Part shown: one piece after another, positions 18,411 through 62,407 of the stretch
Position numbering within the stretch: the first letter of the stretch is position 1
Layout of the letters: each line of letters opens with the position of its first letter
Source: the human T2T-CHM13v2.0 reference genome, Homo sapiens
Length of the DNA stretch: 64,000 nucleotides
NCBI RefSeq assembly: GCF_009914755.1
Contig: NC_060932.1
Direction: 5' to 3' (one strand)
The notes under the pieces: generated by a model
What the model was told of the DNA's origin: nothing
Database searches by the model: none
The model's input: the letters and a program-made list of their open reading frames with translations, nothing else
Program-made: the position numbers and the translations under genes

Positions 18411-18592
18411 ACTATATATTTTATCTACCCTTTTCCCATTGGCATACCTAGTATGCACTTTCTCTAAAATAATTTGAAACAAGTTTTCCTATTTAAATTT
18501 CTTCAGCGAGATTTGTTCTACTTCTATGTGTTAATTCTCTTGACAGTTCAATTATGTCAAATACAACTATCTAATACTAAAGATAATACCTT
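18411..18592 (+). repeat. Donor copy of a 182-bp local duplication
   Basis: Matches 19474-19655 except for 3 substitutions. Confidence 0.97.
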
Positions 18593-19425
18593 AGTCTTGT
18601 GGCATGGTACGTATGCTAAAATCTCAAGCTCTTTCACGCCCTTATGATATATATATTCCTTATGATAGCCCCTTTAGGGAATGAGTCATATCATTGCCTG
18701 TGAAATGCTTTAAAAATCTGAGGATAATAAAAAATAGGTTTTAATTGTGTAATTGACAACAGAAAGCAAATCACATTTTTAAAATCTAATGGTACCCATA
18801 CAAAATGAGGCTAGTGAAAATTTAAGTTAGAAAGCTCAGTTGTTTGGATTAGTCAAGACACATGTATAACAAATAGTAACATTTCCAAATTAAGGAACCT
18901 ATCCTGTCAACTATTTGCACCCCCAACGGAGAAAAATATTTACAGCGGTAATAAGAGAGTGAAGAAATGTTAGGAGAAAAACAGTTCTGTTTAGGAATAA
19001 TCGAAGCACAGCCTGGAATAGCTGTGCTCCTCATTTCATGTGATACTTTCAACTTTTGTCCATAAAACACTTTACTAGGTTTTGTTTTTATTTCCTACTT
19101 TACCTGTGCTTCACTAATTTATTTGTTATATGTTCTCAGATATGTATGTATCTTTGTAAAACACATGGTTTTATTTCACATGTATGATTCATGTAAGTGT
19201 ATTTGCTATTAACTCATTCACTCCCATTTTACCTAACATTGTATTAAATTCTGTCTATGTTGCTATACACAAACTAGTTATTTGTGTTGTGTTCAATAGT
19301 GTGTATATATCACATTTCATTTGTTCATTTCCCTAATGATGAACACATAGGTTGCTTTCAGCTCTTCGTTAGTATATGTTGGAAAGAATATTCCCATACA
19401 AGCTTTTGGACTAATGTGAGTTGGT

Positions 19426-19473: not shown

Positions 19474-19475
<2 letters not shown>

Positions 19476-19655
19476 TATATATTTTATCTACCCTTTTCCC
19501 ATTGGCATACCTAGTATGCACTTTCTCTAAAACAATTTGAAACAAGTTTTCCTATTTAAATTTCTTCAGTGAGATTTGTTCTACTTCTATGTGTTAATTC
19601 TCTTGACAGTTCAATTATGTCAAATACAACTACCTAATACTAAAGATAATACCTT
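19474..19655 (+). repeat. Inserted copy of 18411-18592 inside the (TA)n tract
   Basis: 182 bp, 3 mismatches, followed by a 9-bp fold-back. Confidence 0.97.
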
Positions 19656-21614
19656 TATCTTTATATATATATATGTATATATGGAATATAGAGATTACAA
19701 TATATATGAATATTGAGTATATATATGTACTAGCATATTATTGTATTATATAATTTTCTAATTGTTACCAATTTGACGGTCCTAAAAAAAGAGTTTAAAT
19801 TTTTAAAATTTGCAATTATCTAGTACTAGCAATTAAACCCATCTCAGTTATGCTTTTCTTTCCGTGAATTGAATATCCAAGTCCTTTTTGTATTTCCCAA
19901 TTAGATATCAATATATTTCTTGCTGATTTGCAGAAATTCTTATAAATTCTAGATATCAGCATATGCACTATATAAAATAAACTTTATGTATTAAAACATC
20001 TCTAAAATGCATATGTATTTTACATGCATACAATTGGCCATAGATGTTCTTACAGATATCACTTTTATATCTAAGTAATATTAAATTGATGCTTTCAATA
20101 TTTGTAAATTAAACATTCTAAAGGATAATAAAAATGTTGTACCATAATTCATTTAATATACATTTTTAAATTTTTTGATGTTACATAAAACAATGATACT
20201 TCTAAAAGGTCAAATTCATGTTAAAGCTGATAAAATATAGTTTTACTTAATGGTTTTAGTTACTGAAAGTTTTTTTTCTAAAGTGTATCATTTGTCATTT
20301 AATTGACATTTTGTATCTTTGTTAACAAAAAATACTTAATTTCAAGGTAATAAAACCCGGGTTTCATTTTCTTTTATATGCTTTTGAAATCTTTTGGGAT
20401 TCTGTTGCAAATTCTAGATCATAGATATTTTCTCCTCCTACACTTTCTTCTGTTAGTCTTATAATTTCAAATATCTAATTTAGACAATCTCCTCTAATAA
20501 ATGCTATTCAATTTTATGGTGCAAAGTAAAAACATAGCTTTATATATTTTAATGAGCTGTTTGTACAGGGATATAGGCAATGAACCAATATTAACTGCAA
20601 CATATAATGAACAGTCCTTCCCATTGAATTATTATACCGCACTTACCATTTATAATAAAATGTGTTGCTAACCTCTACAGTCTCTTTCATAGATCTGTGT
20701 TTCAAATCTTATAAATCTATCTTAATGCTGTTTTCAAAACTACTCTACATTAGAATTTGATTGTGTAATTTTCCCCCTCACTTCTTTATTCCTAGACCTC
20801 AACTTAGTTACCAGTAGGAATCCATTTCCACAAAAGTTTTAGAACCTATTTATTTCATTTTACAAAATAAATTGTAGGAATTCAGATTGGGATTCCACTA
20901 AAATTATATTAAAAACTGTTGCCCCATCTGTCATAATATTTATCTCTCAATTTTGTCATATCTTCTTTAAATGTTTTTATATAGATGATCAGAATTGATA
21001 TTTTGCTGTCTTTTTAAAGGATACCTTATTTTATATTTTATTTTCTAGCTGTGCATTTATGATACAGAAAAAAAATTGTTATCTATTTTGCAAGTGTATC
21101 TCTCCAGCAAAATTTGCTTAATCTACTATTAGTATAAATAGATTATGTTTCATTCTCTTTGGCATTCCATATTAATAATTATATCATATAAGTTAAATAG
21201 TTGTATTTCTTCCTCTCTAATTCTTAGGCATCTTTTTTGGTATGTTATTTTAACTATAATATCCACAATAATGTTACATACCAAAAGTAAATATATTGTA
21301 TTTTATTGTTTTTTTTCCTTCACCCAAATAAGGAAACACATGTGAACTTCCTTCATTAAGTATAATATTTACTGTAAATTTTTCATAGCTAGTTCATTAC
21401 ATAGAAAAGTTTGCTTGTGATTTCTAGTTCTCATTTTCTAGAAACAAGTAGATAATGAATACTTGCAGATTTTTTGAGGTATAATAAAATTGTTTTGTTA
21501 GTAAATATGATGAATCACATTGTTAAAATTTTTAATGTTATTCTTGGTAAATATAGCATACATACAAGTAAATGTATATAGCCCATATTTAATATTTAAA
21601 AATAACAAAACAAA

Positions 21615-35439: not shown

Positions 35440-36390
35440 CTGGGTCTTAAACGTTTGGTCTCAGAACTCTTTTAGATGCTTAAAATTATCAGATACCTTA
35501 AAAAACTTTTATTTATGGATGAAATTCATTGACATTGTGCTGGAAATTTAAAGCTGAGAAATATTTAACATAGTTATTGATTAATTAATCTAAAATAATA
35601 AACATATAACATGTTAAAATAAAGAATATATTTTTATAAAAATGGCATTTTAAAAAATATAAGTGTTAGAAGTGTCATTGTTCTATATTTTCCCAAATCT
35701 CTATAATGCTTTGCTTAATAGAAGACAGCTAGATGCTCAAATCTGCTTCAGCACTCAATCTGTTACCCTACCACATGCCAGCTAGCCTCTTGAAATCGCT
35801 ACTGTATTTTTGTGAGAGAAAGGGAGTTTATTGCGGCACTATTCACAATAGCAAAGACTTGCAATCAACCCAAATGTCCATCAATGATACACTGGATTAA
35901 GAAAATGTGGCACATATACACCATGGAATACTATGCAGCCATAAAAAGGGATGAGTTCATGTCCTTTGTAGGGACATGGATGAAGCTGGAAACCATCATT
36001 CTGAGCAAACTATTGCAAGGACAGAACACCAAACACCGCATGTTCTCACTCATAGGTGGGAATTGAACAATGAAACACTTGGACACAGGGTGGGGAACAT
36101 CACACACCTGGACCTGTCGTGGGATGAGGAGAGGGGGGAGGGATAGCATTAGGAGATATACCTCATGTAAATGATGAGTTAATGGGTGCAGCACACCAAC
36201 ATGGCACACGTATACATATGTAACAAACCTGCACGTCGTGCACATGTACCCTAGAACTTAAAGTATAATTAAAAAAAAAAGAAAAAGTCAAATAACAACT
36301 TAATATTTCAAAAATAATTTTGACGTTATGGACCCTGTGAAAAGGGCTCCATATCTCCAGGGGTCTTTGAACTGAACTTTGAGAACGAAT
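35440..36390. mobile_element. hAT-Charlie-type DNA element (MER119-like) interrupted by an L1PA
   Basis: tttggtctcagaactc...ttaaaattat; ttaatagaagacagctagat...; tttgagaac end. Confidence 0.6.
35826..36281 (+). mobile_element. L1PA (about PA4-5) 3' end, 5'-truncated
   Basis: tttattgcggcactattcac...taccctagaacttaaagtataat plus poly(A); explains ORF 35812-36066 (ORF2p C-terminus ...HRMFSLIGGN). Confidence 0.96.
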
Positions 36391-39676: not shown

Positions 39677-40185
39677 ATGTTCTGGAAATATCTATTAGGG
39701 CTATTTGGTCTATAGTACAGATTAAGTCTGATGTTTCTTTGTTGGTTTTCTGATTGGATGATATGTCCAATCCTGAAAGTGGGGTGTTGAAGTCTCCAGC
39801 TATTTTGCATTGGGGTCTATCTCTCTGTCTCCTGAGTTGTAATAATATTTGCTTTATATATCTGAGTGCTCTAGCATTGGGTGCATATATATTTACAATT
39901 TTTTTTTGCAAACATTTATTTTTTTCTTAAAGTATAATATATTTACAATTGTTATACCCTCTTGCTGAATTGACCCCTTTATCATTATATAATGACCTTG
40001 TTTGTCTCTTTTAATAGTTTTTGTCTAGATATCTATTTTTTTCTGATATGCGTAGCTACTCCTCCTTGTTTTTAATTCTGTTTGCATCCAATATATTTTT
40101 CCATCCCTTTATTTTCAGTCTATGTGTATTTTTATAACATCCTGATGGCTGCAGGATGTTATAACATGTGCAGGATACACATGTT
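39677..40185 (+). repeat. Templated insertion: 460-bp copy of 42114-42570 plus a patchwork junction
   Basis: 3 substitutions and one 3-bp indel versus the donor; junction built from the donor flank; ATGTT at both ends. Confidence 0.96.
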
Positions 40186-40940
40186 TTCTTTCTATTGTCT
40201 AATTCATAGGCTAGGGGGGAAAAGAATATTATATATTGTCACTGAAATTTAAAGTGAAGAGAGAAAGAAATGGGACCTACCAGTTTCTGTACTAAGTTCC
40301 AAGCCTATGAATCTCTTTTAATTATTGACCTCAGAAATAAAACAAACCTTCGAGAATATTTTTAGTCTTGTATCTTTTCATAGGTTAATCAGAAATTAAT
40401 ACCTGGATTTTATAAAATAATGAATTTGAATACAAAAGAATCTTTGAAGATAAGTATTTTTAATTATTTTGTGATCTATGTATCTAAAGGTCATTTAATC
40501 TCAAGTAAATTAAGCATTTATTATATGCCATTTACTATGTGAGGCACTTGGATAAATAGTGACTATGACAGGCGCAAGTTCTTCCTTGAGACAGTGTTAG
40601 AACTGGTAAGGGGAGCAATAAATTAGAACCATAACAAAGCATGTAACCATAGAATCTGGAAAATGCAGATAACATGAAAAATTCTGAAGTGGTCAAGGAG
40701 GGCTTACAAAGAAGAAACTGCTGAAACCTGAGGAATATTTAAGAATTACCAAGCTGAAGTTGTGAAACAAACAAAGCACAGTATGAGTTAGAGTCTAGAT
40801 AGGAGATTTGGCAAATCTAACAGGTTCTTTTGAATCTGAAATACATTCCACGTAAGTGCATTGTAAGAAAAACAGCTGGCAAAGATTAGGAAAGGCTGGC
40901 TAGGGAAATAGGCAGACTCTAGTTCATAAAGGCATTTTTA

Positions 40941-41374
40941 TTTATTTATTTATTTATTTATTTTTTATTATACTTTAAGTCCTAGGGTACAGGTGCACAA
41001 CGTGCAGGTTTGTTACATATGTATAAATGTGCCATGTTGGTGTGCTGCACCCACTAACTCGTCATTTACATGAGGTATATCTCCTAATGCTATCCCTCCC
41101 CCCTCCCCCCACCACGACAGGCCCTAGTGTGTGATGTTCCCCACCCTGTGTCCAAGTGTTCTCATTGTTCAGTTCCCACCTATGAGTGAGAACATGCGGT
41201 GTTTGGTTTTCTGTCCTTGGGATAGTTTGCTCAGAATGATGGTTTCCAGCTTCATCCATGTCCCTACAAAGGACATGAACTCATCCTTTTTATGGCTGCA
41301 TAGTATTCCATGATGTATATGTGCCAACCTAAATGTCCATCAATGATAAACTGGATTAAGAAAATGTGGCACAT
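40941..41374 (-). mobile_element. Twin-primed L1PA 3' end with about 48-bp inversion
   Basis: Antisense L1PA 3' end 40941-41326, sense piece 41327-41374; 15-bp TSD ataaaggcattttta at 40926-40940 and 41375-41389. Confidence 0.95.
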
Positions 41375-41859
41375 ATAAAGGCATTTTTAACCTAAACTAG
41401 AGAGTCTGGACTCTTACAGAGGCAAAGTAAAACCATTTAAAATTTTTAACAAGATTAATTGCATTTTCACTTTAAAAAGGTTTTACTCTTATTTGTTAGT
41501 TTGACTTTAAGTTGTGAGCTCATTAATACATAATGTGGACTGTGCATGTTTTGGCTTCTTTTTTATTTTTAGGACCTTATCTTGCCTTCATATTGCTTTT
41601 AATAAACCAGTACAGATACAACTCAATCTTATTTGTTCTCTTTCCCAACACATTCCTAGGCCTTTCCCTCTCTCCAGAGGAAATAGTTTTATTGATGCAC
41701 ATACATGTTTATAAATTTGTTTATATGTAAGTTCCACTAATAATACTTAGCATTACTTTGTAGTTGTAAAATCTTCAGAAAAATGCTATCATCCTCTGGT
41801 CATATTCTGAAATCACCTTGTTTCAGTTTTTTTTTTTTTTCTTTCACTAAACTTTTTAA

Positions 41860-43325
41860 TTTTCTTCTTAATTTTTTCAGTGACCCACGGGTCATTCAAT
41901 AACATATTGTTTAATTTTCATGTGTTTGTATAGTTTCCAAATTACCTTTTATTATTGATTTCCAGTTATATTCCATTGTTGTCAGAGAAGATACTTGATA
42001 TAGTTTCAAATTTAAAAAAAAAATTTAAGACTTGTTTTGTGGCCTAATATATATCCTTGAGAATGGTCAATGTGCTAAGAGAAGACATGTGTATCCTGCA
42101 GCCATCAGATGAAATGTTCTGGAAATATCTATTAGGGCTATTTGGTCTATAGTACAGATTAAGTCTGATGTTTCTTTGTTGGTTTTCTGATTGGATGATA
42201 TGTCCAATCCTGAAAGTGGGGTGTTGAAGTCTCCAGCTATTTTGCATTGGGGTCTATCTCTCTGTCTCCTGAGTTGTAATATTTGCTTTATATATCTGAG
42301 TGCTCTAGCATTGGGTGCATATATATTTACAATTTTTTTTTGCAAACATCTATTTTTTTCTTAAAGTATAATATATTTACAATTGTTATACCCTCGTGCT
42401 GAATTGACCCCTTTATCATTATATAATGACCTTGTTTGTCTCTTTTAATAGTTTTTGTCTAGATATCTATTTTTTTCTGATATGCGTAGCTACTCCTCCT
42501 TGTTTTTAATTCTGTTTGCATGCAATATATTTTTCCATCCCTTTATTTTCAGTCTATGTGTATTTTTATACACATAGACTGTTTCTAGCAGGCAATAGAT
42601 AGTTGGGTCTTGTTTTCATCCATTCAACAAACCTGTCTTTTGATTGAAGAGTTTAGCCCATTCACATTCAATGTTATTGTTCATAATAAGGACTTACTAC
42701 TACCATTTTCTAAACTGTTTTTTAGCTGTTTTGTGGTCTTCTCTTTCTTCCTTTGTTTCTGTGAAAGTAGATTTTTCTGGTGTTATGTTTTATTTTCTTG
42801 CTTTTCATTTTTTGTGTATCTGTTGCAGGCATTTTGATTTGTGGTTACCATGAGGCTACATGTGGTTATCATAAATAATATCTTATAACCCATTGTAAGA
42901 ATCTGATAGGATTCTAAATTCCTTCTCTATGTTATCTTGAATTTGTCTGAACCTCCTCAAAACAGCTGTTTTGAATTCTCTGTCTGAAAGCTCACATATC
43001 TGTCACTCTGGGATTAGTCACTGGTTCCTTATTTAGTACATTTGGTGAGGTCATATTCTTATGTATAGTATTAATGCTTGTGGATGGTTTTTTGATGTTG
43101 GGCATTGAAGAGTTAGGTTATTTATTGTAATCTTTGCATACTGGGCTTGTTTGCACTTGTCTATCTTGAGAAAGATTTCCAAGCGTTCAAAGGGAATTGA
43201 ATATTGTGATCTAAGTATTTGGTCTCTGCAGCCATATCTGCATTAGGGAGCACCCCAAACCCAATAATGCTGTAAAGCTTGCAGACTATTAGAAGTATTG
43301 CCTTGGTGGTGTTTAATAAGATCCA
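41860..43325 (-). mobile_element. L1MA-type fragment (ORF2 endonuclease region, inter-ORF, ORF1/5' part)
   Basis: Minus-strand ORF 42067-42345 carries endonuclease motifs NIYAPN and AGDFNTPLS; collinear L1 sequence continues. Confidence 0.9.
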
Positions 43326-47059: not shown

Positions 47060-49140
47060 AACTCCTGACCAGCCCAGAAGCTCATTTGTCATGACCCATA
47101 AATCTATATGTAGTACAACATTGGAACACTTCTTATTCTGTACACACTGGATGGCAAAGTGTGCCACCTGAAGTTCTGGAAGTTCTGCTGAGTGAGATGA
47201 TTATTCCTTACTAATGTCTTGTATGGCCACCCCTGAGTAAGGCTGTACTGCAATTACTATCCATTTTCAAACCAACCTTCTTTCTAGTTCCAGATATATG
47301 ACCCTTTGTATCTCACAGTCATTGTTTTGCCTCCAATCAGGGCCAAGTAGCATTAAGAACTGTTTCTCAAAAGGTGTATAATTTTCTGCTGAACATAACC
47401 TTGCTCCAAAACTCCAGAATTCTGTGTTATAATTATCCCATGGGACTTACTACAAACTGCTCCCAGCATCTTTTTTCATCATTGGTATCTCCAACATTAT
47501 AAAGCATGGTGCTTTGGCCTTAGTAACATGGCTTTGCTTGCAATCCTGCAACTGCTTTAGAACTATTTGTTGCTGGTACGATTTTGTGTCGCCTTATATA
47601 TAGGCCACAGCAATATTCCTAGTTTCCTTAGAAGACTGACTTCAGAAGCTGAAGTTTATGAGGCTTCGTGCTTTCCTTTTCATCACAGGAGGTGCAAGAT
47701 ATAATTATGTCTCTTTTATTTCAAACAAATTTCCTGCCATGCCCCTGACAATGGGAACCCTGAAACTTCTATAAATGTTTCAGGCCCTGAATACTTGCAT
47801 AAGTCTTACAATTACATTAACTATACCAGTAATATGTTGCTTATCTTTCCGGTTCAGTCTAATATCATTGATGTGATGAATCAATGTGATACTCTATGAC
47901 ATACTCAGATGATCAAGATCTCTGTGTTTTATATTGTGACACAGACAAGAGAACTAACATAGCATTGAGGAGAATCTTTCTACATATATTATTATTCTGT
48001 GTGGTTAAAAAGTATTTGTGATATTCTTTTCTGACAGAGATAAAAAGAATCTATTCACTAAACCAGTGGCAGTATAACATATCACTGCGATCATATTAAT
48101 CTGCTCTATCAAAGGTATATCTGGCACAGTAGCTAAGATAGGACCCAATATTTGGTTAAACCTGCAGAAGTTTAATTGCTTTCTTGGTTATATTTAATTT
48201 CTGCAGGATCCAGCATATTGAATTAAGTATAATTATATAGGATCTGTCACCATTGTATCTTTTAGGTCCTTAAAGGTAGTACTAAATACCACCATCCCCT
48301 TCCCAGGGTAAAATAAGTTTGTTTGTTTTTGTGTCTGCTTCATTGATTTACTATCCTGGCTGGGATGGAGAGTAGTTTCAGAGGCTTCTATTTGGCTTTT
48401 TCACTGTCATATTATTTACCCTGGAGACAAAAGAATCCAACGTGGAGTTTCTTCAACTGCCAACTATGTCGATCCAAATTATAATTTAGGAGACAGGGGA
48501 AATAATCATTGTGTGGGTCTTTTGACTCAGTGTACATACATTGGTCAGGACTACTCCATTTATTACCTTGCTTCCATATGTGCCCACTCAGTCTCTAGAG
48601 AGAAAAAGAGATTTTCAATACAACAAAAGATACCCTCTAGCTTTTACAGTTAGTTTCAATTGCCTGTTATTAATACATAAATTTTCCTCTTCAGTCTCTT
48701 TGAATAGAACAAGGTTTTACAACAGTAGTGCAATTTACGTTTTATACTAAGTAATTCTTTGTTATGGGTCCTGTCTTGTGAATTATAGAATATTCTCTAC
48801 CCCATATAATCCAGTAGCACCCCTCCCTCATCATGACAACTAAGATTGTCTTCACGCATTGCGTAATATTTCCTGGGTTTGGGGTACGGTGAGTAGTAAA
48901 TTTATCCCTATTTGTCCCTATTTGCCATTGCTGTCCTGCAGCAGCAATGGCAATTAGCCCTTGTATCTCTTTACCTTATTGTTACTCTTTTCTTCATGCA
49001 TATTTAACACATGATATATCTTGCCAGCTAGTACATTCTCTTCCATGGATGACATTCTTCAAATTAACTACTGGTGAATGTTTCAATAACTGGTTCATGA
49101 GCTGGTGCATGGGGTTGTTGTGTTCCACATACCACTGGTA
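47060..49140 (-). mobile_element. Ancient ERVL/MaLR internal (pol-like) remnant
   Basis: GC-richer degenerate sequence resembling reverse-strand ERVL RT/RNase H regions (gacccataaatctatatg, gatcaagatctctg...atattgtgacac), next to an MLT1-like LTR. Confidence 0.5.
48722..48935. mobile_element. MER20 DNA MITE
   Basis: taattctttgtt...ctgtc..., ccagtagcaccc, gacaactaagattgtcttca...cattgc. Confidence 0.7.

Positions 49141-61637: not shown

Positions 61638-62407
<770 letters not shown>

What the first reader, a model, noticed from the sequence alone, without database searches (positions are those of the whole stretch)
39677..42570. 460-bp local templated insertion with a multi-switch, fold-back junction
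Seen: 39677-40136 copies 42114-42570 (3 substitutions plus one AAT indel) but lies outside its L1 context and has no poly(A). Its right junction is a patchwork. 40142-40157 is the reverse complement of 42093-42108. 40132-40144 and 40152-40164 form a perfect 13-bp stem (ttataacatcctg / caggatgttataa). 40169-40184 is the reverse complement of 42085-42100. ATGTT flanks both ends of the insert. Known: iterative microhomology priming and snap-back synthesis characterise polymerase theta end joining and MMBIR/FoSTeS. Inference: a germline repair event copying from 2.4 kb away, recent given under 1% substitution divergence.
Basis: partly seen in the sequence, partly recalled or inferred. Interest (0 to 1): 0.75.

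Follow-up and report, generated by a model that had tools for sequence, protein, structure and literature searches.

The report
Repair-made local duplication with donor-side scar
A 460-base piece of an old LINE-1 repeat sits copied 2.4 kb from its source in a gene-free stretch of human chromosome 8, joined on through short folded-back patches; it is likely the scar of a known kind of DNA-break repair, and the source carries a small hairpin exactly where the copy stops that possibly comes from the same event.

Summary
39677-40136 copies 42114-42570 (3 substitutions, one 3-bp indel); the 48-nt filler holds two 16-nt inverted pieces of 42085-42108 and a 13-bp stem. The local L1 is the only donor: 99% against at most 77% full-length elsewhere, and a private 31-mer occurs at these two places only. 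Both copies have mutated independently, so this is no assembly artefact. It is a new member of a known class, repair-mediated duplication (Pace et al. 2009: 824 human cases, donor under 5 kb, up to 619 bp, filler 1-68 nt).

Two additions. (1) All 44 non-shared filler bases can be templated using one donor strand, the one left single-stranded by resection of the right break end; a one-fork model using both strands scores about equally (6.5 vs 7.0). (2) The donor has a derived perfect 14-bp hairpin whose replaced 9 bases start one base after the copy's end; all 18 paralogues lack it. Same event or older is open without ape sequence. Polymerase theta is not shown: tract length and distance exceed its described range. 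Age is loosely bounded (0.14-1.9% divergence). No functional consequence is evident.

The parts
39677..40136 (+). Inserted copy (acceptor), same orientation as the donor; an antisense internal fragment of an old L1, in the ORF2 endonuclease region
   Evidence: alignment; L1 similarity ends at both edges; weak Pfam PF14529 match on the donor's minus strand, E 0.0028, below the curated cut-off
39677..39681 (+). ATGTT, candidate 5-nt microhomology at the left junction (also donor 42114-42118); blunt switch, no filler
   Evidence: whether it belongs to the flank is inferred
40137..40184 (.). 48-nt patchwork filler at the right junction
   Evidence: no other place in the genome matches beyond the L1 part
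40132..40164 (.). Perfect 13-bp stem, 7-nt loop (snap-back product); its outer 5 bases are also the last 5 bases of the long copy
40142..40157 (-). 16-nt inverted copy of donor-adjacent 42093-42108
   Evidence: (I15)
40156..40167 (.). 12-nt perfect palindrome; holds the least well explained bases of the filler
40163..40185 (.).
40169..40189 (-). Inverted copy of 42085-42100, running on into the right flank with 1 mismatch in 21 (microhomeology with 42080-42084)
   Evidence: (I4)
40181..40185 (+). Second ATGTT; with the first it suggests an insertion without loss of target DNA
   Evidence: inferred, empty site not seen
39908..39938 (+). Private marker shared by copy and donor only (inside a 50-bp extra of the donor L1)
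   Evidence: 2 matches in the genome at up to 2 mismatches
41826..43023 (-). Host L1 fragment that holds the donor (approximate extent of similarity to paralogues)
42080..42108 (+). Template zone of the two inverted filler pieces, ending 6 nt before the long tract starts
42114..42570 (+). Donor of the long tract
42550..42581 (.). Derived perfect 14-bp hairpin (4-nt loop) in the donor; the replaced 9 bases 42571-42579 begin one base after the copied tract ends

Best explanation
The 460-bp insert is a copy of the neighbouring L1 fragment with a fully templatable patchwork at its right junction, likely made in the germline when a double-strand break near 39681/40181 was mended by repeated microhomology-primed copying of one long resected strand. 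Steps. (1, inferred) The right end was resected for more than 2.9 kb in today's coordinates (about 2.4 kb before the insertion), leaving its bottom strand single-stranded across 42080-42570. (2, sequence shown, order inferred) The left end's 3' terminus primed on that strand at ATGTT (42114) and was extended about 457 nt in direct orientation, then came off at 42570; completing this would have given a deletion. (3, sequence shown, order inferred) The right end's own 3' terminus folded back on the same strand at 42080-42090 (4-6 exact bases plus 4 more behind one mismatch), which gives inverted copies; it copied to 42100, snapped back on itself (8-bp stem), made two short 3-4 nt attempts on the left end, primed again at 42093, copied to 42108 and snapped back once more (13-bp stem). 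(4, inferred) The last snap-back made a 5-nt overlap (40132-40136) with the long tract, where the ends were joined and filled. (5, inferred, about even odds) An obstacle at 42571 stopped both the first synthesis and the final fill-in, the second time leaving the 14-bp hairpin in the donor by a fold-back switch. The short steps resemble polymerase theta; the long tract likely needed a more processive polymerase. The product is likely neutral.
For: Class level (about 0.9): local donor unique (99% against at most 77% over full length among 45 places listed), L1 context continuous only at the donor, no poly(A), size, distance, microhomology and filler within the ranges of Pace et al.. One-strand detail: the long tract is direct and both donor-derived filler pieces are inverted, the pattern given for intermolecular and intramolecular priming on resected ends (PMC7165422). 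A parse made right-to-left templates 44 of 44 filler bases with the donor bottom strand only (cost 6.5, primers 4,2,1,2,2,2 as printed), whereas left-to-right with that strand only costs 14.5 and leaves 4 bases untemplated. The filler templates lie behind the start of the long tract and on the same strand, which second-end capture in a D-loop does not predict (inference). Donor hairpin: 18 of 18 paralogues match the donor's 9-mer at 4 or fewer positions and form 4-10 of the 14 pairs; donor against paralogue majority is 146/171 before, 2/9 inside, 35/41 after. Unrelated perfect stems of 12 bp or more: 2 in about 144 kb held; best stem near 1,420 random points never exceeded 11. Fold-back switches accompany repair synthesis in yeast (bioRxiv 2023.08.09.552703, abstract).
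Against: The cost comparison does not settle direction: left-to-right synthesis using both donor strands costs 7.0 against 6.5, and the first run, which scored the right-hand primer differently, favoured it 7.0 against 7.5; the scoring is my own and ad hoc. Two steps rest on 3-4 nt extensions with 1-2 nt primers, which chance can supply. Resection of 2.4 kb followed by end joining, and priming that far from the end, lie outside described theta end joining (search within about 15 nt, templates mostly within 30 bp; distal templates under 0.1% of repair). The 4 bases after the copy's end also align to the hairpin arm with one gap (alignment to 40140/42575), which fits an older hairpin. The hairpin coincidence was found after looking, and is one case. 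No empty site, ape sequence or population data could be seen.
Confidence: 0.5

Rival explanations
1. Replication-fork template switching (FoSTeS/MMBIR): one nascent top strand left its template at about 39681, copied 457 nt at 42114, then hopped between both strands of 42085-42108 and its own tail before returning to 40181.
For: A left-to-right parse templates all 44 bases at cost 7.0 in five steps, with a possible 6-nt primer for the 13-bp stem. Complex multi-template germline insertions with forward and reverse pieces are described as MMBIR-like, 33 and 26 in two people (PMC8421209).
Against: Needs both donor strands open, primers of 1, 0 and 1 nt at three of five switches, and treats the 8-bp stem as a by-product. 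Does not explain why the strand returns exactly to its origin.
Confidence: 0.25
2. Synthesis-dependent strand annealing with both ends invading duplex donor DNA (same or sister chromatid), as Pace et al. proposed for this class, finished by end joining.
For: It is the published model for proximal duplications, including chimeric two-donor cases. It accounts easily for a 457-nt tract.
Against: Only 5 nt of homology at the left junction. Both ends would have copied the same donor strand in the same direction, and the right end's templates lie behind the D-loop start, not on the displaced strand (inference).
Confidence: 0.15
3. Sub-question: the donor hairpin is an older, independent template-switch mutation that helped end the copying (about 0.45), or it coincides by chance (about 0.1), rather than arising in the same repair (about 0.45).
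For: The host L1 is old (about 15% from the paralogue majority), giving long opportunity; short template switches are common in apes (4,017 events, PMC7954356); the 4 bases after the copy's end fit the hairpin arm with one gap.
Against: A hairpin in the template should stop a polymerase at the stem base (42550), not 3 nt past the loop (inference). The stem has no mismatch in 14 pairs, which suits a young age. Those 4 bases are also part of the 13-bp stem.
Confidence: 0.45
4. RNA-templated capture: endonuclease-independent L1 insertion or reverse transcription of a local transcript.
For: The insert is an L1 fragment without poly(A) or clear target-site duplication, as in non-classical L1 insertions (PMC1920257, search listing only).
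Against: The donor is a decayed L1 with stops in all three minus-strand frames in a window without annotated genes; filler templates lie beside the donor and in opposite orientation to the long tract; closeness of 2.4 kb is not expected from an RNA route.
Confidence: 0.05
5. Assembly artefact.
For: None seen; reads were not available.
Against: Each copy carries its own derived changes: 18 of 18 paralogues side with the copy at 39962/42396, 15 of 18 with the donor at 40088/42522, and most paralogues keep the three bases that the donor lacks. The filler is structured and unique.
Confidence: 0.02

Closest known systems
Repair-mediated duplication (RD), Pace, Sen, Batzer and Feschotte 2009, PMC2671141
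   Same: Intrachromosomal, donor under 5 kb (here 1,929-1,977 bp between filler or copy end and donor start; 2,437 bp start to start), 460 bp (their maximum 619, median 147), microhomology 2-9 nt, filler 1-68 nt, no poly(A); divergence 0.66% near their human-specific mean of 0.89%.
   Different: Longer than most; the acceptor site is unique DNA and the insert is itself an L1 fragment, so their pipeline (insertions inside annotated repeats) would not be expected to list it. The words hairpin, palindrom and resection do not occur in their main text; they invoke SDSA.
Polymerase theta templated insertions (TINS), Carvajal-Garcia et al. 2020, PMC7165422; snap-back and in-trans extension, Kent et al. 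2016, PMC4912351
   Same: Iterated short syntheses, weak primers, direct copies in trans and inverted copies in cis, a new microhomology made before the final join.
   Different: TINS are 3-30 bp and mostly from within 30 bp of the break; here one tract is 457 nt and the templates lie about 2 kb off.
Complex MMBIR-type templated insertions in the germline, PMC8421209
   Same: Several templates, both orientations, microhomology and microhomeology at switches, germline.
   Different: Their search took templates within about 100 bp; this case adds a long tract from a distal donor.
Short-range template-switch mutations (Walker et al. 2021, PMC7954356; Loytynoja and Goldman 2017, PMC5453318, listing only)
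   Same: The donor's 9-base replacement that creates a perfect inverted repeat is this kind of event.
   Different: Here it coincides with the end of a duplicated tract; their set excludes repeat-masked templates.

Membership tests
Repair-mediated duplication (Pace 2009) | Insertion of at least 50 bp with a single parental copy in the genome | tested here: met
   (the genome search scores only the best 40 of 5,876 candidates; the 31-mer pattern search found 2 places)
Repair-mediated duplication (Pace 2009) | Donor on the same chromosome within 5 kb, not tandem; length up to 619 bp | tested here: met
   ranges
Repair-mediated duplication (Pace 2009) | No poly(A/T) tail; microhomology and/or filler at the junctions | tested here: met
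Repair-mediated duplication (Pace 2009) | Empty orthologous site in an outgroup; size of any target deletion | not testable with these tools
   no primate genomes held; flanks are single-copy, so no paralogue shows the empty site
Polymerase theta templated insertion | Short (3-30 bp) tracts from templates within about 30 bp of the break | tested here: not met
   457-nt tract, donor about 2 kb away against PMC7165422; the filler steps alone are of the right size
Polymerase theta templated insertion | Direct repeats in trans and inverted repeats in cis, iterated | tested here: inconclusive
   compatible parse exists, but a two-strand parse scores alike
Polymerase theta templated insertion | Dependence on POLQ | not testable with these tools
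   historical event
FoSTeS/MMBIR complex insertion | Several microhomology-primed switches by one nascent strand, both orientations | tested here: inconclusive
   cost 7.0, three switches with 0-1 nt primers
L1 retrotransposition (TPRT) | 3' end with poly(A) and a target-site duplication | tested here: not met
   internal fragment, no tail
Short-range template-switch mutation (donor hairpin) | Cluster of changes explained in full by a nearby reverse complement, creating a perfect inverted repeat | tested here: met
   ancestral state taken from 18 L1 paralogues, not from orthologues

The most novel reading that the evidence does not exclude
One repair event scarred two sites 2.4 kb apart: the insertion at the break and a hairpin at the donor, both from a single obstacle on one resected strand. 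Repair-mediated duplications would then be aborted long-range microhomology deletions copied from the break's own resected tail, not D-loop captures, and the far end of the donor would give a fossil lower bound on germline resection length.
Probability: 0.25. Interest if true: 0.55.

Novelty: new member of a known kind. Interest (0 to 1): 0.3.

Why it matters
As one more proximal duplication in gene-free DNA it matters little. Its use is as a readable record: the filler is fully parseable and the donor carries a second mark at the exact end of the tract. If ape sequence shows that both marks arose together, it gives a cheap, genome-wide test of how the 800+ known human repair-mediated duplications formed (resected tail, D-loop or fork), a point left at 'SDSA' in the paper that defined them, and it would mean that donors of templated insertions cannot be assumed unchanged.

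Tried and rejected
Closer or junction-bearing donor elsewhere: none among 40 places for the 131-nt junction (others match only its first 41 bases) or 45 places for the insert. Empty site from paralogous flanks: both flanks gave only themselves. Listing in Pace Table S1: saw 30 of 151 chr8 hits and searched prefixes 1157-1161, no chr8 row; the hg18 position (about 115.9 Mb) is estimated from recalled offsets, so this is weak. Dating the hairpin from Walker's 4,016-row table: no chr8 row at 114.7-115.1 Mb (GRCh38 position again from recall), but repeat-masked templates are filtered out there, so absence says nothing; their alignment file was too large to be read, and three short motifs were not found in the six readable files. 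Fixing the direction of synthesis by parsimony: tie. A survey for donor-end hairpins at other young duplications was not possible; 0 duplications of at least 50 bp and 95% lay in the 24 unrelated loci held (79,799 bases), and the one other duplication of the window has no such stem at its donor ends (6 and 5 bp). Literature for a donor-side scar at the end of a templated insertion: searches listed nothing of that kind, judged from titles and abstract openings only; subscription papers are mostly not covered. Retrotransposition and artefact: rejected above.

Full report
Observation. The sequence, repeat search, self-BLAST and a base-by-base alignment confirm the finding: 39677-40136 matches 42114-42570 with substitutions at 39916/42350, 39962/42396 and 40088/42522 and three extra bases in the copy near 39840. 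The right junction holds exact 16-nt inverted matches to 42093-42108 and 42085-42100 and a perfect 13-bp stem. I add an 8-bp stem (40163-40170/40178-40185) and a 12-nt palindrome (40156-40167). The junction folds far better than shuffles (z = -5.9, 0 of 200). Scanned against tiles of the whole window on both strands, the filler's only 16-nt hits are beside the donor start; the next best is 11. In 19,368 random pairs, 4 reached 16 or more; I did not inspect those.

Donor and direction. In the human genome the insert matches the local L1 at 99% and other full-length places at 71-77% (40 of 5,876 candidates scored, 45 places listed). A 31-mer inside a 50-bp extra private to this L1 occurs twice in 3.1 Gb at up to two mismatches, in donor and copy. 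L1 similarity to five paralogues continues on both sides of the donor but stops at the edges of the copy, so 42114-42570 is the parent. The stretch is antisense L1 ORF2 endonuclease region (weak Pfam match), internal and tailless, so it is not a normal retrotransposition. The junction 131-mer has no full match elsewhere. Both flanks are single-copy, so the empty site cannot be read from paralogues.

Reality and age. Using the 18 best-ranked non-local paralogues (L011-L028), the donor carries the derived base at 42396 (18 of 18 agree with the copy), the copy at 40088 (15 of 18 agree with the donor), and the donor lacks three bases that the copy and most paralogues keep. Independent change on both copies argues against an assembly artefact. 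Three substitutions give 0.66% (95% interval 0.14-1.9%), or 0.3-19 million years across three assumed rates. Pace et al. report 0.89% for human-specific cases. Human-specific or shared with African apes are both open.

Known class. Pace et al. 2009 (PMC2671141; read parts 1-3 of 8 of the text, passages, and searches of supplement 3) describe 824 human repair-mediated duplications: donor within 5 kb, up to 619 bp, microhomology 2-9 nt, filler 1-68 nt, no poly(A). This locus meets each sequence criterion. I did not find it in their table, but my hg18 position rests on recalled offsets and their pipeline sought insertions inside annotated repeats. Multi-template germline insertions are also common (33 and 26 'complex' events in two people; PMC8421209, passages and part 1 of section 10).

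Mechanism. The long tract is direct and the donor-derived filler pieces are inverted. Carvajal-Garcia et al. (PMC7165422, passages) assign direct copies to priming by one resected end on the other and inverted copies to fold-back within one end; Kent et al. (PMC4912351, passages) show one polymerase alternating between these. Read on the bottom strand from the right flank, the filler is: a primer on 42080-42090, copying to 42100, a snap-back (8-bp stem), two 3-4 nt steps on the left end, a second copy of 42093-42108, and a snap-back that creates a 5-nt overlap with the end of the long tract. All donor-derived parts, the long tract included, then use the donor's bottom strand, which is the strand left by 5'-to-3' resection of the right end. 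My parsimony script templates 44 of 44 bases this way (cost 6.5). Left-to-right synthesis costs 14.5 with that strand alone but 7.0 if both donor strands are allowed; an earlier run that scored the right-hand primer as zero gave 7.0 against 7.5 in favour of left-to-right. So the one-strand model is simpler in templates but not proven, and a fork-switching model remains a live rival. Polymerase theta alone is a poor fit for a 457-nt tract primed about 2 kb from the end.

The donor-side mark. At 42550-42581 the donor has a perfect 14-bp hairpin (z = -6.5, 0 of 200 shuffles). Its 9 bases 42571-42579 match the paralogue majority at 2 of 9, against 146 of 171 before and 35 of 41 after; no paralogue forms more than 10 of the 14 pairs. 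This is a short template-switch mutation of the kind catalogued by Walker et al. (PMC7954356, passages and supplement searches), and the switch point is the base after the copy's last matching base. Unrelated, non-microsatellite perfect stems of 12 bp or more occur twice in about 144 kb held; the best stem near 1,420 random points was at most 11. By arithmetic on that density, either end of a tract would fall inside such a hairpin about once in a thousand; the coincidence was noticed after the fact. Either the hairpin was there and ended the copying, or one obstacle stopped synthesis twice and the fill-in folded back. Against the second: BLAST extends the copy four bases into the hairpin arm with one gap. 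For it: those bases also belong to the 13-bp stem, the stem is unmutated, and a template hairpin should stall synthesis at its base. Quasi-palindrome switching during repair synthesis is shown in yeast (bioRxiv 2023.08.09.552703, abstract). I rate the two about even. Walker's list cannot date it, because repeat-masked templates are excluded.

Control inside the window. A second duplication, 18411-18598 to 19474-19661 (97%), sits in a (TA)n tract and ends in a 9-bp fold-back on the acceptor side, with no notable stem at its donor ends. Fold-back filler is thus not peculiar to the finding. A wider survey of other duplications could not be made, so whether donor-end scars recur is open.

Novelty and verdict. 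A real, well-preserved new member of a known kind, with no annotated gene or element affected. I found no paper on a donor-side scar at the end of a templated insertion in searches, judged from listings and abstract openings; the library lacks most subscription papers, and bioRxiv supplements are closed. PMC11724301 (yeast fold-back insertions) was seen as abstract and outline only. Interest 0.3; the two-scar, resected-tail reading has probability about 0.25 and would merit about 0.55.

Noticed in passing
window 18411-18598 and 19474-19661: Second proximal duplication, 188 bp, 97% identical, 1,063 bp apart, direct. The copy at 19474 lies inside a (TA)n tract and its right end forms a 9-bp fold-back stem (19641-19663); likely another repair-mediated duplication at a fragile TA repeat.
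   Followed up: partly
window 42321-42384 (and the matching stretch of the copy): The donor L1 has a 50-bp extra, absent from 16 of 18 paralogues at the column checked, bounded by a 14-nt direct repeat (42321-42334, 42371-42384) with T-runs inside; it looks like a tiny older retroposed insertion with a target-site duplication. Its end resembles an L1 3' terminus (recalled, not tested).
   Followed up: partly
window 40926-41387: Primate L1 3' fragment flanked by a 14-nt direct repeat, with an apparent 5' inversion near 41325 (self-BLAST hits in both orientations to 35866-36295); probably an ordinary twin-primed L1 lying between acceptor and donor.
   Followed up: no
window 48922-48953: Perfect 12-bp hairpin with an 8-nt loop, the only other non-microsatellite stem of this size in the window; possibly an independent template-switch mutation.
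   Followed up: no
window 61798-62242: Self-BLAST shows 61803-61988 repeated at 61938-62123 (85%), and an inverted Alu-like pair 61973-62242/62649-62916 (91%); looks like an Alu with an extra arm beside a close inverted Alu.
   Followed up: no
window 14-543/2105-2635, 5990-6414/7538-7939/9360-9783: Older local direct repeats of 400-540 bp at 67-74% identity; not examined.
   Followed up: no
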